This document shows, piece by piece, positions 1,968 through 62,011 of a stretch of 64,000 nucleotides of DNA (positions are counted from its first letter, which is position 1; each line of letters opens with the position of its first letter). Origin of the DNA: Octopus vulgaris. Taxonomy: Eukaryota. The notes beneath the pieces are model-generated. The model did no database searches. It saw only the letters and a program-made list of their open reading frames with translations, and was not told where the DNA came from. The stretch is from NCBI GenBank assembly GCA_951406725.2, contig OX597822.1:9796001-9860000 (forward strand). Direction: 5' to 3'. The position numbers and the translations under genes are program-made.

Positions 1968-2515
1968 CCACTTCAACATGGCTATTCCGTAGGAACCGAC
2001 ATAACTGCCATTTTTAACCCCAAGAGGAACCTCTTCCAGCTGGCTATCGATGCAAACTTCACCCGATATATATTGTCAGCAGGGGAGCGAACCCCGACCA
2101 TCTTCCAGCGACTGGACCACCAGACCGTTCGGTTTCGAGCTATTTGTGCTCATCCTCAGTGGTGGACATCTGTCCGCTAGAAATAGCAGTAGTTCGCTTC
2201 CGCTCGCAAAACATACAAAAATTAAGTGCCAACCAGTCACTGATCTTGCAACAAGCAAAGTTGCTAGTTAGAAAATCTCTATTATAAGAGATGAAAGCAG
2301 TAACTATACAGAAAGGTAATGCTTACCACCACTTCAACATGGCTGTTCCATAGAACCTGACGTCACTACCGTTTGGTTGTTGCAAGATCGGTGACGGATT
2401 GTCACTCACTTTTCTATATATTGAGAACTGGAGGGGGCTCCTCCAGGGTTAAAAATGGTAGTAAAGTCGGTTCCTATGGAACAGCCATGTTGAAGTGGTG
2501 ACAAATATTACTTCT
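1968..2515 (-). mobile_element. Hammerhead-containing repeat (retrozyme-like): about 1.1 direct units of 361 bp plus an inverted, internally deleted copy
   Basis: ccacttcaacatggct recurs at 1968 and 2329; 2375-2500 is the reverse complement of parts of the unit; HHR at 2117-2165. Confidence 0.7.
2117..2165 (-). ncRNA. Type I hammerhead ribozyme
   Basis: Minus strand: CCACCA-CUGAGGA-U-GAGC(acaaaua)GCUC-GAAA-CCG(aa)CGG-UC-UGGUGG; three stems and all core nucleotides present, GUC cleavage triplet. Confidence 0.85.
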
Positions 2516-2521
2516 CGGTAT

Positions 2522-2733
2522 TACTCTTTACTCCTTTATTTGTTTCATTCATTTGACTGCTGCCATGCTGGAGCATCGCCTTTAATCGAGTAACTCGACC
2601 CCGGGACTTATTATTTTGTAAGCCCAGTACTTATTCTATCGGACTCTTTTGCCGAACCGCTAAGTAACGGGGACATAAACACACCAGCATTGGTTCTCAA
2701 GCAATGCTAGGGGGACAAATACAGACACACAAA

Positions 2734-2774
<41 letters not shown>

Positions 2775-2940
2775 GACGGGCTTCTTTCAGTTTCCGTCTA
2801 CCAAATCCACTCACAAGGCTTTGGTCGGCCCGGGGCTATAGTAGAAGACACTTGCTCAAGGTGCCACGCAGTGGGACTGAACCCGGAAGCATGTGGTTGG
2901 TAAACAAGCTACTTACCACAGAGCCACTCCTGTGCCTATA
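2522..2940 (-). mobile_element. SINE family A, full length
   Basis: Reverse complement of the 1269-1660 type. Confidence 0.9.
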
Positions 2941-3103
2941 TACAGATTTTATAACTAGCTACTTTGCTTGTTATTTCATTCATCCTATTTAACTAATTAG
3001 CTTTTATTCATAAGACATTCTGTATATGATCTCATTCAGTTATTCAATATATTCTCTTATTCCTTCATTCCACTATGTTTATTGCTCTATAATCTATGTT
3101 ACA

Positions 3104-3505
3104 TAAGGCGGCGAGCTGGCAGTAACGTTAGCACGCCGGGCGAAATGCTTACAGGTATTTCGTCTGGCTTTATGTTCTGAGTTCAAATTCCGCCGAGGTG
3201 GACTTTGTCTTTCATCCTTTCGGGGTCGATAAATTAAGTACCAGTTACGCACTAGGGTCGATGTAATCGACTTTATCCGTTTGTCTGTCCCTGTTTGTCC
3301 TCTCTATGTTTAGCCCCCTTGTGGGCAGTAAAGAAATAGGTATTTCGTCTGTCGTTACGTTCTGAGTTCAAATTCCGCCGAGGTCGACTTCGTCTTTTAT
3401 CCTTTCGGGGTCGATAAATTAAGTATCAGTTGCGTACTGGGGTCTATCTAATCGACTGGCCCCCTCCCGCAAAATTTCGGGGTCTTGTTCGTAGAGTAGA
3501 AGAGT
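3104..3505 (+). mobile_element. SINE family B (aaggcggcgagctggcag head; duplicated gccgaggtcgactttgcctttcatcctttcggggtcgataaa core)
   Basis: B-box-like gagttcaaattcc; many copies in the window. Confidence 0.85.
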
Positions 3506-3644
3506 ATAATTTATGTTACATACTGTAGCCCTTTACTTCATGTTTCATAATAAGTTTTTTGAAGTTCTTGTTTGTTTAAGAACGTTTTCCTCGTCTCTTT
3601 TAACCCGTCTCTTCGTTAGACCCTCTCTAACCGATCACTCTCTC

Positions 3645-4040
3645 TCTTTACTCTTTTACTTGTTTCAGTCATTTGACTGCGGCCATGCTGGAGCACCACC
3701 TTTAGTCGAGCAAATCGACCCCGGGACTTATTCTTTTGTAAGCCCAGTACTTATTCTATTGGTCTCTTTTGCCGAACCGCTAAGTGACGGGTACATAAAC
3801 ACACCAGCATCGGTTGTCAAGCAATGCTAGGGGGACAAACACAGACACATACACATATATATATATATATATATATATACGACAGGCTTCTTTCAGTTTC
3901 CGTCTTCCAAATCCACCCACAAGGCATTGGTCGGCCCAAGGCTATAACAGAAGACACTTGCCCAAGATGCCACGCAGTAGGACTGAACCCAGAACCATGT
4001 GGTTGGTTAGCAAGCTACTTATCACACAGCCACTCCTGTT
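3645..4040 (-). mobile_element. SINE family A, full length
   Basis: Sequence identity to the other copies. Confidence 0.9.
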
Positions 4041-4159
4041 ATTTTTTTCGTTACTTTTTGCTTTTAACCCTAGGAGTAAAACTCCACTGGCCAGTGGCTC
4101 GCATTCGGTTCCATTTCACATTTAATTCCTTTGCCATCAACATCCATATCTATTTTTCT

Positions 4160-4427
4160 TCATCATCCTCATCTTCCTCTGCCTCATCGTCGTCTTCCTC
4201 CCCCCACTTCATCTCCTTTTTCCTATTCTTCTCTAATTGACTTCTCTCTTTCGATCTCTCTCTATCCCTCTCTCTATCTCTTTCTCTTTGTTTCTCACTG
4301 ATTTTTTTCTTTCCCTCTGTTTTTGTGTATCTCTCACTCCCTTCGTCACTTTCCTCCTTCCTTGATCCCCTCTCCTTCTTCTTCTTCTTCTTCTTCTTCT
4401 TCTTCTTCTTCTTCTTCTTCTCCTTCT

Positions 4428-4459
<32 letters not shown>

Positions 4460-4899
4460 TTCTTCTTTCGATCTATCTCTCCCTGTTTGTCTTTCTATGT
4501 CTCTCTCCTTTCACCATCTCTCTCCCTCCTCCCCTCCATCTCCGCCACCCCTCCCCTCATCCCTCTCCCTCGTCCATCTCCTCTCCTCCCCTCCTCCACT
4601 TCTTCACTTCTTCTTCTTCATCTTCTTTTTCTTCTTTTCTTCATCTTCTTTTTCTTCTTTTCTTCCTCTTCTTTTTCTTCTCCCTTTAGCGTTCCCCCTT
4701 CCTCTCTCTCTCTCTCTTCCTCTCTCTCTCTCTCTCTCTCTCTTCCTCTCTCTCTCTCTCTCTCCACCTACCCTTCCACTTTTCACTCCCACCACCTCAC
4801 AACCTCTCTCTACCTGTCTTTCTTCCCATTCACTTTTACTCACTCATTTCTCTCCCTCCTTCTCCCCGCTCTCTCTCCTCCCACCTCTCTCTATCCCAA

Positions 4900-8662: not shown

Positions 8663-9057
8663 TCTTTATATATAAAAGAGAGGTTATGTGCTGTCTGTCT
8701 CCTACGATTTAGATTCCTAACTACTCCCACATTTTGCGGTGCAGTTTAACTAAAACCGGGTATCTTATAGTCGTGATTCATATCGAGCCCTTCTGGGTAT
8801 TAGCGCGCGTCTACGATGAGTCTACGATTTAAAAAAAAAATTACCATCAATTTTTCTCATTTTTAATGCATTTTTGGCATTTATAAGGGAAGTAACTCTC
8901 TAAAATTTAGTAATTGAATCTCAGATCGTAAAAAGCTACAGTAACACCCCCCCTTGTGGTTAGCCATATTGAGATGGCTATTATACTTTACATCTCTAAA
9001 AATGCTTATATAGTTATTTCCCTTACAAACCCGAGCAACGCCGGGCGATACTGCTAG
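8663..9057 (+). mobile_element. Non-autonomous Helitron (395 bp)
   Basis: 5' TC, subterminal GC hairpin cccgagcaacgccggg, 3' CTAG, inserted between A and T; second copy at 39845-40239. Confidence 0.85.
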
Positions 9058-10904
9058 TATATTATAAGAAGAGTAAGGTAAGTTGTAATATGTTTGTCAC
9101 ATATTTCAACTGCTAAAAGGCAAACACTCTGCAGTCACTGTGGAGAAAAATAGTTTCTTACGGTAAAAAGGGTTGAAAACACCCGGTTCGTTTAGTGTCA
9201 CCATCTATTAGGAATCCCAGGCATCGATGTTTCGAGTTTTTTTTACTCTTGTCAATGAGATGTACTTGGGAAAGGTAACTCTGAACGAACTTAATAAAGC
9301 CATAGCTTTATATATAATTCAGTCAACACATTGACTGGTTTGTGACAAGAAAATCGCCCGACCGAGGTAAATAACGAAGTGTCAGCACGAAGTATATGCA
9401 GAAGTTGAAATATGTTTGTCATATATTTCTACTACTAAAAGTTACCGAGGAGAAAAGATCTCTCTTACAGGTGCTAACAGTAAAGATCACGTATTTTTTT
9501 CTCCTTCATTACAGGACAGAAAATCCGAATGAGGTTCGTATTCTAACATACGTATAGGCTATTTGTTTCCCATTATGATGCAAACATGCACCTCATTCCT
9601 GAATTAAATAGGGTCTGGGATCGTTAGCTGGTCTGCAATATATCTTCAACGTGTACCTGATGATGGTCATTTGTCCAACGTCGTTACCAGCCGCTCCAGG
9701 TCCGTTTCACTGGCACCTCCAACAGCGTGATCTTGTATGTTCACTGTTCCATTATGTTGAGAAGAGGGGGAACTCTTCTAAGAAGCCTATAAATTTGGAG
9801 ATCTTACTTATAACCTCTTCACATAAGTTTGTAAACCTCACTGTGTCATAGTGGCTGTTTCTTTTTTTTACTGGATGGTCAGTGTGTTCTTCATCTTGAA
9901 CTGAATTGGGGCCGAAACAGTTAAACGGTCAGCATTCTCAGCTTCTATTCCGATCAATAGCATAACAGAAAAATAAATGTTAGAAAATGTGTTGAGTCGA
10001 GAACACAAAGTTTCTCTTGAAAATAATGTTGAAGGCGTGCTTGTTTATGGCTCCTCTACCATCATTGTGACGATTACCTCTTACCGCCACTTCTACGAAA
10101 GCTCTTTTGCCATACGTGTTAATCCTGAAAATGTATTTATCAAAACTGTTAAGATAAACTTTTTCTCCACCTCCCCACTCCAGATAATAGGGGTAGACGT
10201 TCTGAAACTCTTTGGCAGTAAGAAGACACCCAGCCCTCAAAAAGAAAAGAAAAGAAAAAAGAATTTTCTTTCATAAGTTAATTTAAGAAAAAATATTTTC
10301 TAAGCAAAGCCCTGTTCAGTAAAGAGCAGTAGTAGTAGTAGCAGTAGTAGTAGTAGCAGCAGTAGTAGTAGCAGCAACAACTTATGTACAGAATGTGAGA
10401 TTAAGCCTTTCTAAATGAATTCGTTACAGTAATCACTTGCACTATGCATCTAATATCATTAAATTAAATCCTTAATGAGAGCGACTAATTAGATGCACTG
10501 AAACTTAGCTGGACTAAAATGCCAAACAACATTTAGGCTTATATAAAGCTTTTCTCTCACAATTTTGTATTCCCAATCTGTCTGGAATTTAGCTGTCACC
10601 CTTAAAGATTCGGGGGAAGTAAATAGCTGTAATATATGTGGTGTGATTTCTACTGATTTATGCCTTTATTTCAAAACAAAGGTGAAGGACTTCATGTAAG
10701 CATTATGGTTATAGAACTGCTAAATATAGTAATGAATTCACCCTCCTCAAACACTGTTAATCAATGAGTGTTCTCCGTCACAGCTGACCCAGGGTTAAAC
10801 AGCACTGCATTTACGTCAACATCATTACCAGCTACCCAACGTCAGCTGCAATAACTGCATAGCCACCCATACCACTATCAACAAAACGTGCCAAAGCCTC
10901 TTCA

Positions 10905-14308: not shown

Positions 14309-14353
<45 letters not shown>

Positions 14354-14357
<4 letters not shown>

Positions 14358-14588
14358 AAAATAGTAAAGTGTGAAAAAACGACAGAAGGCTTAAATGTTA
14401 AAAAATATATATATTTGTGTCAAAATGTCTGGAGAATATTGGAAAAATTTTTTTCCTTTCCTTAAAATGACATAAAAAAGGAAAAAAAAAAAAATTTTTC
14501 CAATATTCTCCAGACATTTTGACACAAATATATATATTTTTTAACATTTAAGCCTTCTGTCGTTTTTTCACACTTTACTATTTTCTTA
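14354..14588. repeat. Perfect inverted repeat of about 100 bp beside (TA)n arrays
   Basis: 14354-14454 is the reverse complement of about 14488-14588. Confidence 0.9.
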
Positions 14589-14626
14589 TATATTCACCCA
14601 CGTGCTTTACCAAACAAACTTTCTTA

Positions 14627-15428: not shown

Positions 15429-15559
15429 GAACGGCAACGAGAAACTCAGAGTAACAGATTTTGTTGAATTTTCTGGTGCTTAAAATAAAGCATATTACTC
15501 TACCACTGGTATTTGAGTACTCTTTTTTCCACCTTGTTTCACATTTATGTGTTTACTCC

Positions 15560-15621
<62 letters not shown>

Positions 15622-15752
15622 CCGGAGTAAACACATAAATGTGAAACAAGGTGGAAAAAAGAGTACTCAAATACCAGAAAAACTGTCTGACGAACGGGAA
15701 CGTGAAACTCAGAGTAACAGGTTTTGTTGAATTTTCTGCTGCTTTAAATAAA

Positions 15753-15753
<1 letters not shown>
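15429..15753 (+). mobile_element. Small HHR-bearing, (TA)n-associated PLE-type terminal repeat in direct and inverted copies
   Basis: Forward copy 15429-15561, (TA)n, inverted end 15622-15677, forward copy 15678-15753; same family at 61124-61270. Confidence 0.7.
15679..15725 (+). ncRNA. Minimal type I hammerhead ribozyme
   Basis: aaaaCUGU-CUGACGA-ACG(ggaa)CGU-GAAA-CUCAGAG-UA-ACAGguuuu. Confidence 0.75.
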
Positions 15754-15800
<47 letters not shown>

Positions 15801-16789: not shown

Positions 16790-16965
16790 TGAGAATTTCC
16801 AAAAAAACAAAAGACGAAGACGGGTGTGTAAACAACAAACAGATGTATTAGTTTAACGCTCGGGAAGTGAGAAAGTCTTTTACGTTTCGAGCCTACGCTC
16901 TTCGATAGAAAGGAACACAGAAATAAACAGGGAGAGAAAATAGAAAAAAGTTTTAGTGGCTAGAA
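16790..16965 (-). mobile_element. Solo 3' terminus of a Penelope-like element
   Basis: Homologous to 45461-45640 (aaacaaaagacgaag...gtattagt...acgtttcgagcctacgctcttc); next to TA-rich repeat. Confidence 0.8.
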
Positions 16966-17957: not shown

Positions 17958-18086
<129 letters not shown>

Positions 18087-18247
18087 CGTATTTTTGCCAT
18101 TTCAATATGGCTAACCCCTAAGGGTGGATGCTACTGTAGTTTTTAGCCCCAGGAGGACACACACCTCCAGCTGGCCATAGACACACTATCTGTGTCCTGT
18201 CAGTATTTGCAATGGGAAGTCATCCTTCCCGTCTTCAACTTATGATA

Positions 18248-18292
18248 CACACGGACTCGAGTTTCGAGGTATTGACCTCTCGTCAGCGTGTG
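18248..18292 (-). ncRNA. Type I hammerhead ribozyme, copy 1
   Basis: CACACG-CUGACGA-GAGGU(caau)ACCUC-GAAA-CUCGAG-UC-CGUGUG; stem I extends through an internal loop (caacu-augau / aucau-aguug). Confidence 0.92.
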
Positions 18293-18599
18293 ACAATCAT
18301 AGTTGTCGCCGAGAATAGATTTCCTTCACAAATACTTATACTTTTTCCAGCGTCCACTGTCGCTGATATTGAAAAAGTGAAATCAAACAATGATAAATAT
18401 CAAAGTGAGTTATATACAGTAGCGGTAACACATCGTGACGTATTTTTGCCATTTCAATATGGCTAACCCCTAAGGGTGGATGCTACTGTAGTTTTTAGCC
18501 CCAGGAGGACACACTCCTCCAGCTGGCCATAGACACACTATCTGTGTCCTGTCAGTATTTGCAATGGGAAGTCATCCTTCCCGTCTTCAACTTATGATA

Positions 18600-18644
18600 C
18601 ACACGGACTCGAGTTTCGAGGTATTGACCTCTCGTCAGCGTGTG
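18600..18644 (-). ncRNA. Type I hammerhead ribozyme, copy 2
   Basis: Identical to 18248-18292, 352 bp away. Confidence 0.92.
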
Positions 18645-18919
18645 ACAATCATAGTTGTCGCCGAGAATTAGATTTCCTTCACAAATACTTATACTTTTTC
18701 CAGCGTCCACTGTCGCTGATATTGAAAAAGTGAAATCAAACAATGATAAATATCAAAGTGAGTTATATACAGTAGCGGTAACACATCGTGACGTATTTTT
18801 GCCATTTCAATATGGCTAACCCCTAAGGGTGGATGCTACTGTAGTTTTTAGCCCCAGGAGGACACACTCCTCCAGCTGGCCATAGACACACTATCTGTGT
18901 CCTGGAGACAAACTATCTG

Positions 18920-26493: not shown

Positions 26494-28206
26494 ATACAAA
26501 AGGCAAAAATTGAGTACATCAACATTGAAGATGATGATATCGCACTCGCCATAGATGAGATTGACACAAACTCAGCTGCTGGACCTGATAGATTTCCAGC
26601 GATCCTTCTCAAATCGTGCTAACGAGCCCTTGCAAAACAGCTACAGCTTCTTTTCCAGAGCTTTCTTGCAAGTGGTAACCTCCCAGTCAAATTGAAAGAG
26701 GGGGTAATATGCCCTATCCATAAGGGAGGAAGCAGAGCAGATGCTAAAAATTATAGGCCTATCTCTCTGACCTCACACATCAGCAAAGTCATGGAACGAA
26801 TAGTCCGCAAGAAACTAACTTGAAGAAAATGACTTGCTGACTGACACCCAGCATAGATTTCGACCAGGTAGAAGCTGCCTAACATAGCTCCTGCAACACT
26901 ATGACTGGGTGTTAAAACAGGTACTAAATGACTCAAATGTGGATGTGATATATCTAGACTTTGCAAAAGCCTTTTATAAAGTCGACCACGGTATGATTTG
27001 TCACAAACTGCGTGGTCTCGGCATAGGCGGAAAACTTGGAGAGTGGCAGCACAACTTCCTAAAAGATAGAAGGCAGGCAGTTGTGACCAATTGAGCCACC
27101 TCCAAGAAACACAAATAACAAGCAGTGCTCCACAGGGCACTGTCTTGGGGCCACTGCTGTTCATAGTTGCCCTTTCAGACATGCCCTCAGTTGCTAAGAT
27201 GGCCACCCTTGCTAGCTATGCAGATGACAAAAGTCTCCCACACAATACAAAACCCTGGAAATATTGCAATCTGCAACAAGAGTTGGATACAATATACAGG
27301 TGGGCTGAGGACAACAACATGCAGTTTAATGCAGGTAAGTTCCAGGCCCTGCGCTACCGGCACACAAAGGTAAACGACACGCAGACTGGATACACTGGCC
27401 CGGGAAGAATTGCAATCCCTGAGTCAAAATCAGTGCGAGATCTGGGCATTGACATGAGCAATGACGCATCTTGCCAAGTACATATTACTTATTTGGTGAT
27501 AAAATGCAGACGGCTAGCTGGGATGGATTCTCCGAACTTTCAGAACAAGAGAGAAGGAGACACGGATGGTCCTGTAGAAAACATTCGTCCTCAGCCGCTT
27601 GGACTACTGCTCCCAACTATGGTCACCACACAATATAAAACTAACAGCAGAACTCGAAGCAATTCAGAGAAGCTACACAAAGAAAATCGTCTCAATGCAA
27701 AATATCAGCTACTGGGAAAGACTGAAAGTATTAAACCTCTTCTCCCTAGAGTGGAGGCGGGAGAGATATGCGGTGATATACATCTGGAAAATCCTGGAGG
27801 GTCTTGTCCCAAACTTTGGCATTCAAAGTTACCCCAACCGCAGAACGGGGCGCCACTGCATGGTGCCAAAGATTCCAACATCACCATCAAAATACAGGAC
27901 CAGATACTTCAACAGCTTGGGTTTCAGAGGACCACTACATTTTAACATCCTCCCTAAATGCTTGAGAGACTTGCATGTTGTGGATGTGGGTTTCTTTAAA
28001 ACTAAACTGAATCTCTTTTTGTTGGGGGTCCCAGATGAACCTACCTCACGACAGGAGACACAGATGCGGGCAGCGGCATCGAACTCCCTTGTTGACCAAG
28101 TGCCACGTATCTGAGGTGGATTCACATATTAGTGTAGCTCATTCAGCGGTGGTGCCCCAGCATGGCCGCAGCCTTCGGGCTGAAACATTTTAAAGGATTT
28201 AAGGAT
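26491..28206 (+). mobile_element. 5'-truncated CR1/L2-superfamily LINE, RT pseudogene with intact 3' end
   Basis: NYRPISLTSHISKVMERIV, DVIYLDFAKAFYKVDH, APQGTVLGPLLF, SYADD, YWERLKVLNLFSLEWRR; frameshifts; 3' stem-loop and short tandem tail; flanked by TA-rich repeats. Confidence 0.9.
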
Positions 28207-39492: not shown

Positions 39493-39538
39493 CATAAAAA
39501 ACCTTAGGAATGGGAACCCAGGTTCAAAATTTCCCCAT

Positions 39539-39584
39539 GACACCTGGTGAAGGCCAGAGGGTATATCAGCCGAAACGTTGTGTT
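39539..39584 (+). ncRNA. Degenerate minimal hammerhead motif (PLE type)
   Basis: GACAC-CUGGUGA-A-GGC...GCC-GAAA-CG-UU-GUGUU; A6 mutated to G. Confidence 0.5.
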
Positions 39585-39844
39585 AACAACAAGCAAGATG
39601 AGGAAAATAATGTCCAGAATTTTTATAATTTGTTTTATGATCTTATTTCCATCCCTGTTGGATCCCGCTTTTCTGTCCACGACAGCTTTCTTTCAAGTTG
39701 GCTGCAATTATTTTCCCTAGATGGAGCAATAGTTTAGCTGAACTTAAAGAACTCATTCAGTTAGCAGTGCAGGTGATAACTCCTGAAATCCTTCAATTTG
39801 TGTTTCTCAATGCTAAGGGATACAGGCGGAGCACATGTTGAAAA

Positions 39845-40239
39845 TCTTTATATATAAAAGAGAGGCTGTGCGCTGTCTGTCTCCTACGATTTAGATTCCT
39901 AACTACTCCCACATTTTGCGGTGCAGTTTAACCAAAACCGGGTATCTTATAGTCGTGATTCATATCGAGCCCTTCTGAGTATTAGCGCGCGTCTACGATG
40001 AGTCTACGATTTAAAAAAATATTTAGCATCAATTTTTCCCATTTTTAATGCATTTTTGGCATATATAAGGGAAGTGACTCTCTAAAAATTTATTATTAAA
40101 TCTCAGAACGTAAAAAGCTACAGTAACACCCCCCTTTGTGGTTAGCCATATTGAGATGGCTATTATACTTTACATCTCTAAAAATGCTTATATAGTTATT
40201 TCCCTTACAAACCCGAGCAACACCGGGCGATACTGCTAG
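39845..40239 (+). mobile_element. Non-autonomous Helitron, second copy of 8663-9057
   Basis: TC...hairpin...CTAG, A/T target, high identity to the first copy. Confidence 0.85.
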
Positions 40240-40565
40240 TTCTCAATAAAATTTTAACGTAAGATTTATAAATCTATTTGTTTTGGTATCATAATTAAAT
40301 AATAAACATAAAATTCAGTCAGTAAAAAAAACAAACTGCTCGATATCAATGAAATCGATAATTAATTCTGGAACATCCAGTACAACTGAAAAATTTGTTT
40401 CATTCACAGTTTTTTTTATTCATTTGCGTTTTAAATACATTTAATTATAATTCTTTACCTTCATATCTTTTTAGAGAAACCAGTTATACTTAAATGGAAA
40501 TAATACATTTCTAAATCTCTCAAAGAGATTCATACAGTAGCAGCACGATAAAGTGATGGTATGTT

Positions 40566-41049
40566 GTCCCATGAAAGGGAAGAATGTTACTGCTATTGAG
40601 CCATAGGAAACACCGTTTTCTGTTGGCCTTTTCTGTGTCCTTATGTTTTCAAATGGGTGATAAGCACCCCCACCCAGCAAAGCCAGTAACCAGAGACTAG
40701 TTTCAGAGTCTTTGCTCATAATCAGTCTGGAGTAGCATGACTTGCTACTGTATAAATCTCTTTGAGATGTTTAGAAATGTATAATTTCTATTTTCGAAAT
40801 CAGTGAATGTATTTCACTTGAAATATATATGTTTTCAAAGGCGGATAGGTATCGACAGCTAGCAATCCATGCTACTTCAGACTGACGATGAGCAATGACT
40901 CTGAAACTAGTCTCTGGTTAGTGGCTTTGTTGGGTGGAGGTGCTTATCTTCCCTTTGAAAACATAAGGACACACTAAATGCGCCAAGGCCAACAGAAAAC
41001 GGTGTTTCCTATGGCTAAATAGCAGTAGCATTCTTCCCTTTCATGGGAC
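40566..41049. mobile_element. Inverted pair of about 175-bp HHR-bearing repeats
   Basis: 40566-40739 is the reverse complement of 40868-41049; HHR core in both arms. Confidence 0.7.
40875..40917 (+). ncRNA. Type I hammerhead motif with weak stem II
   Basis: cuuCAGA-CUGACGA-uGAG(caauga)CUCu-GAAA-CUAG-UC-UCUGg. Confidence 0.6.
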
Positions 41050-45383: not shown

Positions 45384-45461
<78 letters not shown>

Positions 45462-45557
45462 CGGGAAGCTTTATGAAAATAAACAAAAGACGAAGGCAGG
45501 CGGAAAACAAACGAACAATTGTATTAGTATGGCGCTCAGGAAATATAAATAAAACAA

Positions 45558-45597
45558 GTCTTTAACGTTTCGAGCCTACGCTCTTCAACAGAAAGAT
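45558..45597 (-). ncRNA. Variant minimal hammerhead-like motif at the PLE 3' end
   Basis: UCUUU-CUGUUGA-A-GAGC(guag)GCUC-GAAA-CG-UU-AAAGA. Confidence 0.55.
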
Positions 45598-46096
45598 ACA
45601 CAGAGAGAGAAAAACACAGAAAGAAGGAGAGAAAAAAATGCGTGCAGTAGCTAACGAATCAACATGGCGATCTGATTTCGGCCAGAGGTCAAAGATCAAA
45701 CATGAGACGCGAGAGCGAAATAAGGGGAGATAATAGGGTTGATAAAAGGGTTGAGGGACCAGCTAAAAGTGCGTGGGAGGGGTCTGGATGTGTGTATGTA
45801 TAGGGTTGGTGTATGTATTAGTATGTATAAGGGTGTGTGTGTGTGTGTGTGTGTGTATGAGAGAGTATTAGTGCGTAAGATTGGTCTGGACGTGCGTATG
45901 TATGGGGTTGGTGTATGTATTAGTATGTATTAGTATGTATTAGTACGTATTGGTATGTATAGTGTGTGTGTGTGTGTGTGAGAGAGTATAAGTGCGTATG
46001 CGGGGTCTGGACGTGTGTATGTATAGGGTTGGTGTAAGTATTAGTATGTACTGGTATGTATTAGTACGTATTAGTATGTATTAGTTGGTGTGTGTA

Positions 46097-47723
46097 TTAG
46101 TATGGCACATCATATGTGATGTGATGTGTAAAGTCATGTGGTGTAGTGAGGAGAAGAGGGGGAGGGGGAGAAGAGGGGGAGAAGGCGAGGGGAAGAAGAG
46201 GGGGAGGAGAAGGGGAAGAGGAGAGGATGGGGGAGAAGGAAGGGGAGGAGGGGGATGAAGGAGGAAAGAGGGAGAGGGGGAGAGAGGGAGTGAGGGAGCA
46301 GAGGGAAGGGGAAGAGGGAGGGAGAAAGAGGGAAGAAGGGAAGGGGAGTAGGGGTGAAAGGATGAAGGACTGAAGAAGTAGGGGTCGGGGGGAGAAAGGA
46401 TAGGTGAGGAGGGGGAGAGGGGGGTTAGATGAGGAGGGGGGAGAGTTGAGACCAAATGGCGTATAAGAGCGAAGAGAGAAGATTAATTCCTGTTCACGGC
46501 GCAAACGGGAATCCGGATGGCCTCTGTGTAAGGACAAACCGAACACAGATAGGTGTTGCAAGGAGTGACCGGTGGAGCGGAAATGGCGTGAGACCGGTGT
46601 GTCGTTCGCAAGGTGGATGTCACGAAGGTGTTCCGCGAACCGGTCAGCCAAGCGGCGTCCCGTTTGTCCGATGTACAAGGAATTGCAGAGAGAGCAAGAG
46701 ATGCAATAGATAATATTGCTGGAGGTGCAGGTGAAGGAGTGGATGATGGGATAGGGTCGATGGTGGGTGCTAGTGAGGCGGGTGGTGTTGGAGAGGTAAG
46801 GGCAAGTGCGGCAACGTGGGCGGGAGCAGGGGAGCGAGCCGGGTTGGGAGGTAGGGTCAGGGAAGGAGCTATGGACCAAAAGGTCTCCAAGGTTGTGGGC
46901 TCGTTTGAAAGAGGGGAGGGGTCGGTTAGGGAAGAGGTGTGAAGTGGACGGGTCGGACTGGAGATGACGGAAAGCTCGAAGAATGGTGCGTTGGAGACGT
47001 AGGGTCGTGGGGTGGTAAGTGAGGGGAAAAGGGAGGCGGGAGACTACAGGGCGGGTTCGGGGAGAGAGAGCAGATACACGGTCCACGGACCGTGCTCTGG
47101 CAAGGGCGGTGTGGATAGTGGTGAGGGGGTATCCACGTAGGGTGAAGTGGTGAGCCATACGTTGAGACTGAGTCTCAAAGTCATGGTCGTCACTACAGAG
47201 CCTACGTAGACGGAGGAATTGGGAATAGGGGATGGAAAGCTTGGTGTGTTCTGGGTGGGAGGAAGAGAAGTTGAGGTATGAGTGTGAGTCTGTGTGTTTG
47301 TAGTGAATGGAGGTGGTAAGAGTGGAGTGAAGAATGCTAACCGAAATGTCGAGGAAGGAGACAGAGGTGTTGGAGATAGTGGAAGTGAAGTGGAGGGCTG
47401 GATGGAAAGATTGGACGAAAGAGAGGAAGGAATCGAGATGTTCGCGGGAGAGTGAGGTGGCACCGATAATGTCGTCAATATAACGACCATATAGTTCAGG
47501 AGTGGGACCAGTGAAATTAGAGAATATTTGGGCCTCAACATAGCCAACGAACAGGTTCGCATAGTTGGGGCCCATTCGCGTTCCCATGGCCACTCCCGAG
47601 ACCTGATGGTAGAACTCGCCCGCGAACGAGAAGCAGTTCAGAGTAAGGACAAGTTCGGCCAGACGAATGAGTGTGGAGGTGTCAGGTACAGGGTTAGAGC
47701 GGAGGTCAAGAAAGTGTCGAAGG
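46097..47723 (-). CDS. PLE reverse transcriptase (C-terminal half) plus Cys-rich linker plus GIY-YIG endonuclease; uninterrupted but 5'-truncated
   Basis: FYHQVSGVAMGTRMGPNYANLF, YGRYIDDII, FLDISV, IPYSQFLRLRRLCS, CSRPRCRTC, NIIYCISCSLCNSLYIGQTGRRLADRFAEH, REQELIFSLRSYTPFGLN; the first residues of the listed ORF come from flank. Confidence 0.9.
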
Positions 47724-48037
47724 ATATATATATATTCACTATACTTTAATGTATTCACTTATACGAATATTCGTATGAGTACGTATATATTTGTGTGCAT
47801 ATACATACACACATACATATATATGTGGATATATATACACATATATATGTAATAACACGACATAAAAGCAAGCACATACATACATCTGTATACATATATA
47901 TAATAAATGTTTTCTTTTATGTCGAGTTATGATGAAAACAATTTAACATTAAACTGAAGGATTACTCAATACTTTATCGACAGTAACTTCGAAGTTTCGG
48001 CAAAAGTATATGAAAAACACAATCTGACAAGACCTTG

Positions 48038-51452: not shown

Positions 51453-52288
51453 ACTTATAAATAAGGGCAAACGAAAAAAATTTCTAATGCCAAATATGCC
51501 GAAAATTGGACATGTTGTCCAATACCATATAATTTATCACAATATGCACGCTACTCGAAAAAAGCTGACAGAAATTTCTAAAAAATTACATTATTACCAT
51601 ATCGGACCGATTTCAGGGTTAGTTCGTAAGAACCCTCCCTTCGTCAATGATAAATGTGGCTAAAAGAAATAAATGAGATACTTACTCATACTCATGGAAG
51701 AAGCAAAACACTAAGTCATGAGCACAATTAAGTACCCCAAATAGATCTAAAATAGAAATATGCTGGCCATTGATAAAATTTTTTTTCGAAAAAATTTTTA
51801 TCCTACATTAAATATAAATTTAAGTGTTCACTTCCGGACTCTTTCACCCTGTGAGAGCCTTAGTTCAAATCGCACGTGTCTTGAATGGGCTGGAGTATTT
51901 CTATTCTAGATGTATTTGGGGTACTTAATTGTGCTCATGACTTAGTGTTTTGCTTCTTCCATGGGTATGAGTAAGTATCTCATTTATTTCTTTGCCACAT
52001 TTATCACTGACGAAGGGAGGGTTCTTATGAACTAACCCTGAAATCGGTCCGATATGGTAATAATGTAATTTTTTAGAAATTTCTTCAGCTTTTTTCGAGT
52101 AGCGTGCATATTGTGATAAATTATATGGTAATGGACAACATGTCCAATTTTCGGCATATTTGGCATTAGAAATTTTTTTGTTTGCCCTTATTTATAAGTT
52201 GTTTATAATTTTAACCTTTAAAGGCATTTTTAATATGCTGGCCATTGATAAAATTTTTTTTTCGAAAAAAATTTTATCCTACATTATA
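51453..52288 (+). mobile_element. HHR-bearing element in inverted plus tandem arrangement (PLE pLTR-like)
   Basis: 51453-51760 is the reverse complement of 51896-52199; 51760-51810 is a direct repeat of 52234-52286; TA repeats on both flanks. Confidence 0.75.
52002..52054 (+). ncRNA. Type I hammerhead motif with long stem II
   Basis: UAUCa-CUGACGA-AGGG(agggUUCuuauGAAcuaa)CCCU-GAAA-UCGG-UC-cGAUA; mutated minus-strand copy at about 51600-51651. Confidence 0.6.
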
Positions 52289-52295
52289 TATATAT

Positions 52296-60393: not shown

Positions 60394-61123
60394 TCAGGTC
60401 ATCCCATAAGCTCTGTCAGATTTTACCTTGTTTAAAATTGAATGAAATTTAATAGTATTTTAGAATGTCTAATGGAATTAAAAATTATTTTTATGTATTT
60501 GTGTACATTTAAACTAATTAAATATTATTTTACAGAATAATAGAATTAAAATTTCTTTGATTAAAGCCCTTTCTAATATGGACATATCCAAAGAGCATTT
60601 GGGGCACATAATGTACGAAAACGGAAACTTTGGATCCGAAGCGACTCGAAACATACCCTCAGTTTATGGGAAAGAATGCTTGAATGAAAGAACTTGCAGA
60701 AGATGGTTTGCAAAATTCAGAAGTGGAGATTTCAGCATTGAAGATGAAGATCGAACACGACATCCAGTTGAGTTTGATGGTAAGCTCCTTGAGGCATTAC
60801 TTGGAGAAAATCCTGCATTATCAGTTGCAAAATTGGCAATAAAGCTTAGTTCAAACCATATAACTGTTCATCGTCATCTTCAACAACTTAGAAACGTTCC
60901 TAAACTTGAAAAATGGGTGCCTCAGGAATTGTCCAAAAGCAACCGCAAATTCGAAGTTGATATCTGCTTTTCTCTCCATTCTCGCGAACTCATTTCACCC
61001 TTTTTGGATAGACTTGTGGCTGGTGACGAAAAATGGATATTCTATCGAAATGTTAAATGTCGTAAACAATGGCTTGGTAAAAGGGAAAAATCTCAACCAC
61101 AACCGAGAATAGAACTTCATGGC
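60394..61123 (+). mobile_element. Mariner element, left part, inserted at TA in a SINE and cut off by an HHR element
   Basis: ta|tcaggtcatcccataag left end; transposase frame follows. Confidence 0.8.
60578..61123 (+). pseudogene. Mariner transposase N-terminal half
   Basis: ERTCRRWFAKFRSGDFSIEDEDR, KWVPQEL, FLDRLVAGDEKWIFY; catalytic C-terminal half missing. Confidence 0.88.
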
Positions 61124-61270
61124 AAAAACTGTCCGACGAACGGCAACGGGAAACTCAGAGTAACAGGTTTTGTTGAATTTTCTGCTGCTTTAAATAAAGC
61201 ATATTACTCTACCACTGGTATTTGAGTACTCTTTTTTCCACCTTGTTTCACATTTATGTGTTTACTCCGG
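61124..61270 (+). mobile_element. HHR-bearing terminal repeat, same family as 15429-15753, ending at (TA)n
   Basis: aaaactgt-ccgacga-acggcaacgg-gaaa-ctcagag-ta-acaggtttt (core U4C) ... tttactccgg(TA)n. Confidence 0.75.
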
Positions 61271-62011
61271 TATATATATATATATATATATGTTACTACA
61301 TTCACTAGTCTTAATTTCCTTCTCACACCATATCTAATATTACTTATAACTGTCAATTCATATCCTAATTCAAACATAACTATGTCTTTCCATTGGACAC
61401 ATCAATTAAACTTTCTATGAAAATTAATTATTTGGATTTTAAATTACTTATCTACTTATTATAGAGGGATTGTATCTTAAACATTTTTCAGTCATATTTT
61501 CAAATAACCGTTAGCTTCATCAGTTTTAGTTTATACACAACAAGATTCAACAACATTCTTTAGTATGCTATCAATTTTTTATAAGGATAAAATATGTATA
61601 TCCGTATTTGCTATCTGCTGTTGCCTTCATCAAGCCTTCTGTAATAGTAATAATTCCTGTTGCATACTTCTTGCACTGAGGAGAACTGTGATATAAAATT
61701 TAAATTTAATGAAATTAACTTTCATTATTCTACCATGTTATTTACACATTGATATCGCTTTTCGAAACGATCGTATGCAGGTATTAAAATACTTTTAAAT
61801 TTTAACATCTTCTCCATTTTTTAACATACTTGATGAGTTTTTTACGGGATGCTTTACCATAAATTCTCATAACACACCATTTACATGTAATAATTTCATA
61901 TTCGCAAAAATCTTATGCCAGTAAGCTACCGGTAAAATATGAAGAATCTCTGTTAGAAATTGCCCTTTGGAACCTTCAAGAATAAAGGATGAAATATAAT
62001 TCAACCTCACT

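What the first reader, a model, noticed from the sequence alone, without database searches (positions are those of the whole stretch)
45461..47723. Young (TA)n-targeting Penelope-like element: plausible engine for the ribozyme elements
Seen: more than 420 codons of RT, Cys-rich linker and GIY-YIG without stop or frameshift, in a window where every other transposon ORF is broken or cut short. It has TA repeats at both ends and a solo 3' end at 16790. About eight sequence-unrelated or diverged HHR-like families occur in the window (2117, 9215, 15679/61125, 18248/18600, 39539, 40875, 45558/16875, 52002), many abutting microsatellites and in tandem or inverted form. Established: PLEs carry HHRs, form tandem and inverted terminal repeats, and are the proposed mobilisers of animal retrozymes. 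Inference: an autonomous/non-autonomous ribozyme-retroelement system using microsatellites as insertion sites, with roughly a dozen HHR-like motifs in 64 kb.
Basis: partly seen in the sequence, partly recalled or inferred. Interest (0 to 1): 0.7.

Follow-up and report, generated by a model that had tools for sequence, protein, structure and literature searches.

The report
Truncated Penelope copy, probably wrong engine
This is a front-truncated copy of a very young jumping gene that inserts into TA repeats; the small ribozyme-bearing repeats nearby are likely moved by enzymes of this class, but their insertion shape points to a different family in the same genome as the probable driver.

Summary
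The element is real: a young, TA-targeting Neptune-type Penelope-like element (PLE, family A) with a hammerhead-like motif near its 3' end. The window copy is 5'-truncated. It lacks about 535 of 1,078 codons, including much of the RT core, so it drives nothing; intact copies exist elsewhere (7 of 25 ORF starts seen).

Two are TA-inserted tandem retrozymes (353 and 486 bp). One is old, one is SINE-like without TA bias, and two were not traced.

The 353-bp retrozyme carries a PLE footprint: TA at 57 of 63 3' ends, and head-to-head twin arms with fixed long and short ends in 24 of 39 insertions. Family A never shows twin arms (0 of 40). A second Neptune-type family, B, does (11 of 32), and two B-retrozyme fusions were found. 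Only age favours A.

PLE mobilisation of retrozymes is already proposed in print, and this scan noted the twin-arm footprint before on other DNA of this genome. New here: evidence on which family drives it.

The parts
45461..47723 (-). 5'-truncated copy of Neptune-type PLE family A (unit positions 2234-4492 of 4,492)
   Evidence: 99.5% identical to a natural full unit from L031; all 29 sibling loci continue upstream of this breakpoint
46097..47723 (-). ORF remnant: RT C-terminal part, thumb, CX4CXXC linker, GIY-YIG with CCHH, Pro/Ser-rich tail; about 535 N-terminal residues missing
   Evidence: Pfam RVT_1 matches only profile 111-176 here against 1-176 in a full copy
45559..45596 (-). Minimal type I hammerhead-like motif of family A; core CUGUUGA (A6U) plus one extra A, 4-bp stem II, loop-less palindromic stem III
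   Evidence: core tally; cleavage untested
45384..45460 (.). (TA)n target at the 3' end
   Evidence: family-wide 37 of 40 3' ends
47724..47735 (.). Short (AT)6 at the 5' truncation point
16790..16963 (-). 3' end of an older sister family (A2) with a decayed hammerhead near 16875
   Evidence: 74% to family A; 836 candidates; linked to A-like ORF ends in L114 and L122; 9.4% median divergence
18083..18904 (-). 353-bp non-coding retrozyme, 2.3 tandem units, canonical hammerheads at 18248-18292 and 18600-18644; 3' end abuts (TA)n at 17961-18082
   Evidence: monomer folds at z -6.5
51453..52295 (.). 486-bp-unit retrozyme, twin-armed insertion (51453-51760 minus, 51757-52295 plus); hammerhead 52001-52060
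15429..15760 (.). 3' ends of Hydra-clade PLE family D around (TA)n, including a twin-armed insertion at 15622-15753; hammerhead core at 15687
61122..61272 (+). 3' end of Hydra-clade PLE family D, joined to the end of a mariner-like frame, TA at its 3' end
2000..2200 (-). Old non-coding hammerhead repeat family (motif 2117-2165, canonical core plus one extra U); no TA bias seen
39494..39625 (+). Hammerhead-bearing SINE-like repeat (core decayed in this copy); not TA-targeted
9200..9260 (-). Decayed hammerhead-like motif with a U3-A8 core; family not traced
   Evidence: read by eye
40492..40950 (.). Decayed hammerhead-like motif near 40875 in an inverted pair of arms (87% alike); family not traced

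Best explanation
The element is a 5'-truncated, non-coding copy of a very young TA-targeting Neptune-type Penelope-like element (family A), and the nearby tandem retrozymes are likely copied in trans by Penelope-type RT and endonuclease, most probably of a twin-arm family such as B rather than of family A. SHOWN: the truncation, TA targeting, family ages, single-arm insertions in A, twin-arm long/short-ended insertions in B, D and the retrozymes, and two B-retrozyme fusions. INFERRED: tandem transcripts are cut by the hammerhead into unit RNAs, possibly circles. The GIY-YIG domain nicks (TA)n, and the freed 3' ends prime reverse transcription. Family A primes once, at one fixed point followed by a TA-like tract in its own RNA. 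B-type enzymes prime from both strands at two fixed points, so the two cDNAs meet head to head. The fusions would be template switches in a single event.
For: Truncation. TA at 3' ends: A 37 of 40; 353-bp retrozyme 57 of 63, against a window background of 3.8% of positions, 1.3% outside TA runs; 486-bp 26 of 35 and D 45 of 50. Twin arms: 353-bp 24 of 39 (script 25, one false positive removed by hand), each pairing unit end 353 with 46-52; 486-bp 12 of 23 and D 20 of 30; B 11 of 32 (hand count); A 0 of 40; A2 0 of 30. Fisher, A vs B p = 4e-5, A vs retrozyme p = 2e-10. A and B were both sampled with ORF queries, so long templates can be twin-armed. Fusions with no TA between the parts: L044 joins B and the 353-bp unit head to head; L327 joins B to the 486-bp unit in the same orientation. 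No such fusion with A appeared in the adjacency scans. Craig et al. 2021 attribute inverted arms and the one-sided tail to PLE endonuclease and say LINE TPRT does not make them (PMC8557442).
Against: Age fits A best: median pairwise divergence is A 0.16%, 353-bp retrozyme 0.28%, B 0.93%, D 1.3-2.6% (all are top-hit samples and biased young). Tail lengths differ: about 25 nt in B, 47-50 in the 353-bp unit, about 70 in D, about 90 in the 486-bp unit. No retrozyme shares sequence with A, B, C or D at E <= 0.05. There are only two fusions; each could be two insertions joined by a deletion, and the B sample was seeded from L044. The twin-arm rate also differs between B and the retrozyme (p = 0.03). 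No full B copy with one continuous ORF was seen. Only four PLE families with ORFs were met; others may exist. The twin-arm shape could depend on the template rather than the enzyme.
Confidence: 0.6

Rival explanations
1. Family A is the engine, as the first reader proposed (through intact copies elsewhere, not this one). Twin arms would arise from the small circular template rather than from the enzyme.
For: A and the 353-bp retrozyme are the two youngest families, both with 0% median nearest-neighbour distance. Both target TA. A has intact 1,064-1,102-aa ORFs in 7 of 25 starts seen and 3,258 candidates.
Against: 0 of 40 A insertions and 0 of 30 sister-family short ends are twin-armed, while long B and D copies are. 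No A-retrozyme fusion was found. There is no sequence link.
Confidence: 0.2
2. The driver is the Hydra-clade family D, an unsampled twin-arm PLE, or several PLE families sharing the retrozyme RNAs.
For: D is twin-armed in 20 of 30 sampled 3' ends, closer to the retrozyme rate than B is. 11 of 20 D loci hold open frames of 718-727 codons. D's hammerhead has a long palindromic stem III like that of the 353-bp unit. Further PLE fragments turned up in flanks.
Against: D is older than the 353-bp burst, its tail length differs, and no D-retrozyme fusion was seen.
Confidence: 0.15
3. The retrozymes spread without PLE enzymes, by a LINE, by DNA-level amplification, or by repair at fragile TA hairpins.
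For: There is no sequence homology to any PLE sampled. TA runs are abundant. LINEs were named as an alternative in PMC7229834.
Against: Fixed long and short 3' ends, variable 5' truncation and head-to-head arms match B and D exactly. Copies are dispersed over many contigs at 99% identity.
Confidence: 0.05

Closest known systems
Neptune-clade EN+ Penelope-like elements (Craig et al. 2021, PMC8557442: passages, section 11, supplement search and part 54)
   Same: C-terminal GIY-YIG with CCHH, CX2-5CXXC linker with the long Neptune-type spacing, Neptune-like RT3 and RT4 motifs (compared by eye with Figs S1 and S2), partial tandems forming pseudo-LTRs, 5' truncation, microsatellite bias, hammerhead in the 3' end.
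   Different: Family A lacks the inverted arm and the one-sided tail described as frequent in PLEs (0 of 40). Its hammerhead core has U at position 6. Clade assignment is by motif, not by tree.
Metazoan non-LTR retrozymes (Cervera and de la Pena 2020, PMC7229834: passages and Discussion; Li, Clavereau and Pollet 2026, bioRxiv 10.64898/2026.07.22.740005: parts 1-3 of 5, supplements closed)
   Same: Non-coding tandem units of 350-490 bp with a type I hammerhead, co-existing with PLEs, which both papers propose as mobilisers.
   Different: In the parts read, those papers argue from co-occurrence, shared ribozymes and pseudo-LTR homology. Here there is no homology to the PLEs sampled, but there are PLE insertion footprints and fusions. 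Expression, cleavage and circles are not shown here.
PLE minimal hammerheads (Cervera and de la Pena 2014, PMC4209133: parts 1-2 of 4)
   Same: Extra base between positions 9 and 10.1, palindromic or loop-less stem III, and the U3-A8 core variant (seen in family B and at 9215).
   Different: An A6U core was not in the parts read; one full-text search for it found nothing. Lunse et al. (RNA Biol 14:1499), which covers PLE hammerhead variants, was not held and may describe it.
Hydra-clade PLEs (PMC8557442, section 11)
   Same: Family D (source of 15679/61125) has RWK, DKT, a CxCX5C-type linker, no CCHH, TA targeting and a hammerhead.
   Different: The second linker cysteine is present in only 3 of 20 loci, and the commonest hammerhead core has U4C.

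Membership tests
EN+ PLE, Neptune clade (family A) | Single ORF with RT and C-terminal GIY-YIG | tested here: met
   7 of 25 ORF starts run intact for 1,064-1,102 aa; Pfam RVT_1 and GIY-YIG, the latter below its cut-off
EN+ PLE, Neptune clade (family A) | CX2-5CXXC linker and CCHH in the endonuclease, long Neptune-type linker spacing | tested here: met
   one search compared by eye with Fig. S2 text
EN+ PLE, Neptune clade (family A) | Partial tandems (pseudo-LTRs) and 5' truncation | tested here: met
EN+ PLE, Neptune clade (family A) | Hammerhead motif in the pseudo-LTR | tested here: inconclusive
   Stems and cleavage triplet present, core has A6U; activity untested
EN+ PLE, Neptune clade (family A) | Placement with Neptune in an RT phylogeny | not tested
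Autonomous element (this copy) | Complete ORF with start and full RT core | tested here: not met
   Starts at unit position 2234; about 535 residues missing
Non-LTR retrozyme (353-bp unit) | Non-coding tandem units each with a complete type I hammerhead | tested here: met
   up to six full units in one arm (L210)
Non-LTR retrozyme (353-bp unit) | Self-cleavage and circular RNA | not testable with these tools
   Needs RNA assays; only assembled contigs were available
Non-autonomous derivative of family A (353-bp, 486-bp and 2117 units) | Sequence shared with the pseudo-LTR of the partner | tested here: not met
   No match at E <= 0.05, word size 7
Non-autonomous derivative of family A (353-bp and 486-bp units) | Same insertion footprint as the partner | tested here: not met
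   TA target shared; twin arms 24 of 39 and 12 of 23 against 0 of 40
Hydra-clade PLE (family D) | RWK, DKT, CxCX5C linker, no CCHH, TA targeting | tested here: met
   second linker cysteine intact in 3 of 20 loci

The most novel reading that the evidence does not exclude
PLE families in one genome split into single-arm (A) and twin-arm (B, D) integrators. Retrozymes with no sequence link to any of them ride specifically on the twin-arm Neptune-type family B, and the two fusions are captured template switches. That would name the enzyme that moves an animal retrozyme and supply a matched negative-control enzyme from the same genome.
Probability: 0.4. Interest if true: 0.65.

Novelty: new member of a known kind. 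Interest (0 to 1): 0.45.

Why it matters
Which enzyme mobilises animal retrozymes is proposed but, in the papers read, not shown, and how PLEs make inverted arms and tails is called an open mechanistic question (PMC8557442). This genome offers young candidate enzymes with opposite footprints and a very young passenger RNA, so both questions can be tested directly. The flagged copy itself is an ordinary dead PLE insertion.

Tried and rejected
Rfam scan: swamped by microRNA models matching TA repeats; only the 353-bp hammerheads appeared among the 150 rows shown of 265. One search used wrong coordinates and hit TA-rich flank; discarded. One search (A 3' end) returned only 51 candidates, mostly diverged, probably because the commonest words are skipped, so short young A copies are under-sampled. 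Expression: no RNA holder listed; four contig sets laid on the retrozyme hold it but cannot show strand, level or circularity, so no verdict. Minimum-energy folds of the 353-bp monomer and dimer do not form the hammerhead junction; such folds do not decide activity. ARAGORN found no tRNA in the window or in 19 of 19 loci of the 39539 family. The protein atlas gave only generic RT/GIY-YIG clusters. Rejected: 16790 as a copy of family A; 15679/61125 as a retrozyme; a pseudo-LTR origin of the retrozymes from A, B, C or D. Tail-to-tail neighbours sharing a TA run (L097, L194, L245, L305) were not counted as fusions. The TA count for A2 (8 of 30) is too low because matches stop short of the end; most ends printed run into TA. 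Literature searches; none listed a paper that assigns retrozymes to a PLE family by insertion footprint.

Full report
Verdict. The flagged element is a real but dead copy of a very young Neptune-type Penelope-like element (PLE). The claim that this family is the engine is not: its insertions have a different shape.

Setting. The window is G000:C9:9796001-9860000 in a 2.8-Gb animal assembly. It is likely a cephalopod; that rests on recall and on earlier scan notes and was not tested.

The element. A stop-free frame runs 47758-46097 on the minus strand. It holds the RT C-terminal part, a CX4CXXC linker and GIY-YIG with CCHH. A genome search gave 3,258 candidates; the 40 scored were all listed at 100% (rounded) identity. 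All 29 sibling loci continue upstream of the window's breakpoint. Natural full units are about 4.5 kb and often form partial tandems. Of 25 ORF starts seen, 7 run intact for 1,064-1,102 aa. The window copy covers unit positions 2234-4492 and lacks about 535 residues; Pfam RVT_1 matches profile 111-176 here against 1-176 in a full copy. It cannot encode a working RT. Family A ends at one fixed point followed by TA in 37 of 40 cases; two exceptions are internal tandem junctions. Linker spacing and RT motifs match Neptune rows in Craig et al.'s supplement by eye; no tree was built.

The hammerheads. A type I descriptor finds 5 motifs with a perfect core and 8 with at most one change, against 0.05 and 0.38 in 60 shuffles (descriptor written after seeing the motifs). 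The motifs at 9215, 16875, 40875 and 61125 fail it and look decayed or variant. Tracing six of the eight groups in the genome sorted them as follows. 45558 is family A's own motif and 16875 belongs to an older sister family, 74% identical. 15679/61125 leads upstream through a long non-coding tail into an ORF with Hydra-clade motifs; 11 of 20 loci hold open frames of 718-727 codons. 18248/18600 is a 353-bp tandem non-coding unit with 2,305 candidates. 52002 is a 486-bp tandem unit with 3,070 candidates. 2117 is old, with 19% divergence and TA at 0 of 25 matched ends. 39539 has a tRNA-promoter-like head in 9 of 19 loci and TA in 1 of 19.

The retrozyme footprint. In 39 independent 353-bp insertions (46 loci, 7 dropped as the same or a duplicated insertion), 57 of 63 3' ends abut (TA)4 or more; the window background is 3.8% of positions. 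24 of 39 are twin-armed: two 5'-truncated arrays joined head to head. The script counted 25; L205 was a neighbouring old fragment, and L214 was mis-typed but is twin-armed. All 24 pair unit end 353 with end 46-52. The 486-bp unit is similar: 12 of 23 twin-armed, with ends clustered at 136 and 222-230 (the two window loci left out). Craig et al. describe an inverted 5' copy and a tail at one end as PLE hallmarks not seen in LINE TPRT (PMC8557442). PLE mobilisation of these retrozymes is therefore well supported, though inferred.

Which PLE. Family A shows no inverted arm in 40 of 40 insertions with a visible 5' end; its sister shows none in 30 of 30, and one of 30 diverged A-like ends was flagged, an older 70% fragment. 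A second Neptune-type family, B, is 27% identical to A in protein and has 3,498 candidates. It is twin-armed in 11 of 32 insertions (hand count), 10 with long/short ends and one unresolved; Fisher p = 4e-5 against A. Family D is twin-armed in 20 of 30. Two loci join a retrozyme to B with no TA between: L044, head to head with the 353-bp unit and TA at both outer ends, and L327, B running into the 486-bp unit at a non-standard point. None joins a retrozyme to A in the same scans.

Against this reading. Ages favour A: 0.16% for A, 0.28% for the 353-bp unit, 0.93% for B, 1.3-2.6% for D, 4.9% for the 486-bp unit (top-hit samples). Tail lengths differ among B, D and the retrozymes. No retrozyme shares sequence with A, B, C or D, unlike the Xenopus cases in Li et al. 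2026. Two fusions are few and could be deletions, and the B sample was seeded from one of them. Short young A copies are under-sampled. B's RT-endonuclease frame is open for 784 codons in L319, but its 5' part lies in a separate overlapping frame.

Mechanism. Shown: structures, ends, ages, fusions. Inferred: the hammerhead cuts tandem transcripts into unit RNAs, possibly circles (model in PMC4209133 and PMC7229834); the endonuclease nicks (TA)n; A primes once, perhaps helped by the TA-like tract just after its 3' end; B-type enzymes prime from both strands at two fixed points. Odds: twin-arm family led by B 0.6, A 0.2, D or another family 0.15, non-PLE 0.05.

What is known. PLE hammerheads, TA bias, pseudo-LTRs and PLE mobilisation of retrozymes are all in print. 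Six searches listed no paper that assigns a retrozyme to a PLE family by footprint; most subscription papers are not searched, the preprint's supplements were closed, and Lunse et al. was not held. Earlier notes of this scan report the twin-arm footprint on other DNA of this genome; I saw them after my own counts, and they are not independent evidence. The element is a new member of a known kind. The family-level contrast makes an open question testable, hence interest 0.45.

Noticed in passing
window 45559-45596 and A/A2 loci: The A lineage keeps U at hammerhead core position 6 while position 7 varies (114 of 131 tallied matches, overlapping loci). Family B has a U3-A8 core and family D mostly U4C. 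Activity unknown.
   Followed up: partly
L318, L319, L328, L317, L320 (family B): Family B seems to have two overlapping frames: an ORF of about 410 aa ending at the same point in several copies, and an RT-endonuclease frame starting about 60 nt earlier. This is either a shared inherited break or programmed frameshifting; PLEs normally have one ORF.
   Followed up: partly
window 39494-39625; L338-L356: A hammerhead-bearing repeat with a tRNA-promoter-like head and an internal (AAT)n tract, 2,288 candidates, not TA-targeted, head inverted in 4 of 19 loci. It resembles the SINE-like hammerhead repeats of Schistosoma described in PMC6765202 (passages).
   Followed up: partly
window 18083-18904 versus 2000-2200 family: The young 353-bp unit and the old 2117 family share a 35-85-nt block near the 3' end in 7 of 25 loci; fragments of it also lie at 8931-8986 and 40113-40168. 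Possible conserved cis-element or common ancestry.
   Followed up: partly
window 14349-14597: An inverted pair matching the TA-proximal end of my family C slice; may be another twin-armed insertion.
   Followed up: no
window 60518-61272: A mariner-like transposase frame runs directly into the 5'-truncated end of a family D copy.
   Followed up: no
window 27070-28114: A LINE-like RT split over two overlapping frames; label recalled, not tested.
   Followed up: no
L036-L039, L298, L307, L313: 9 of 25 family A ORF starts break at the same codon (49 aa): a shared mutation in one sub-lineage or a recurrent assembly error.
   Followed up: no
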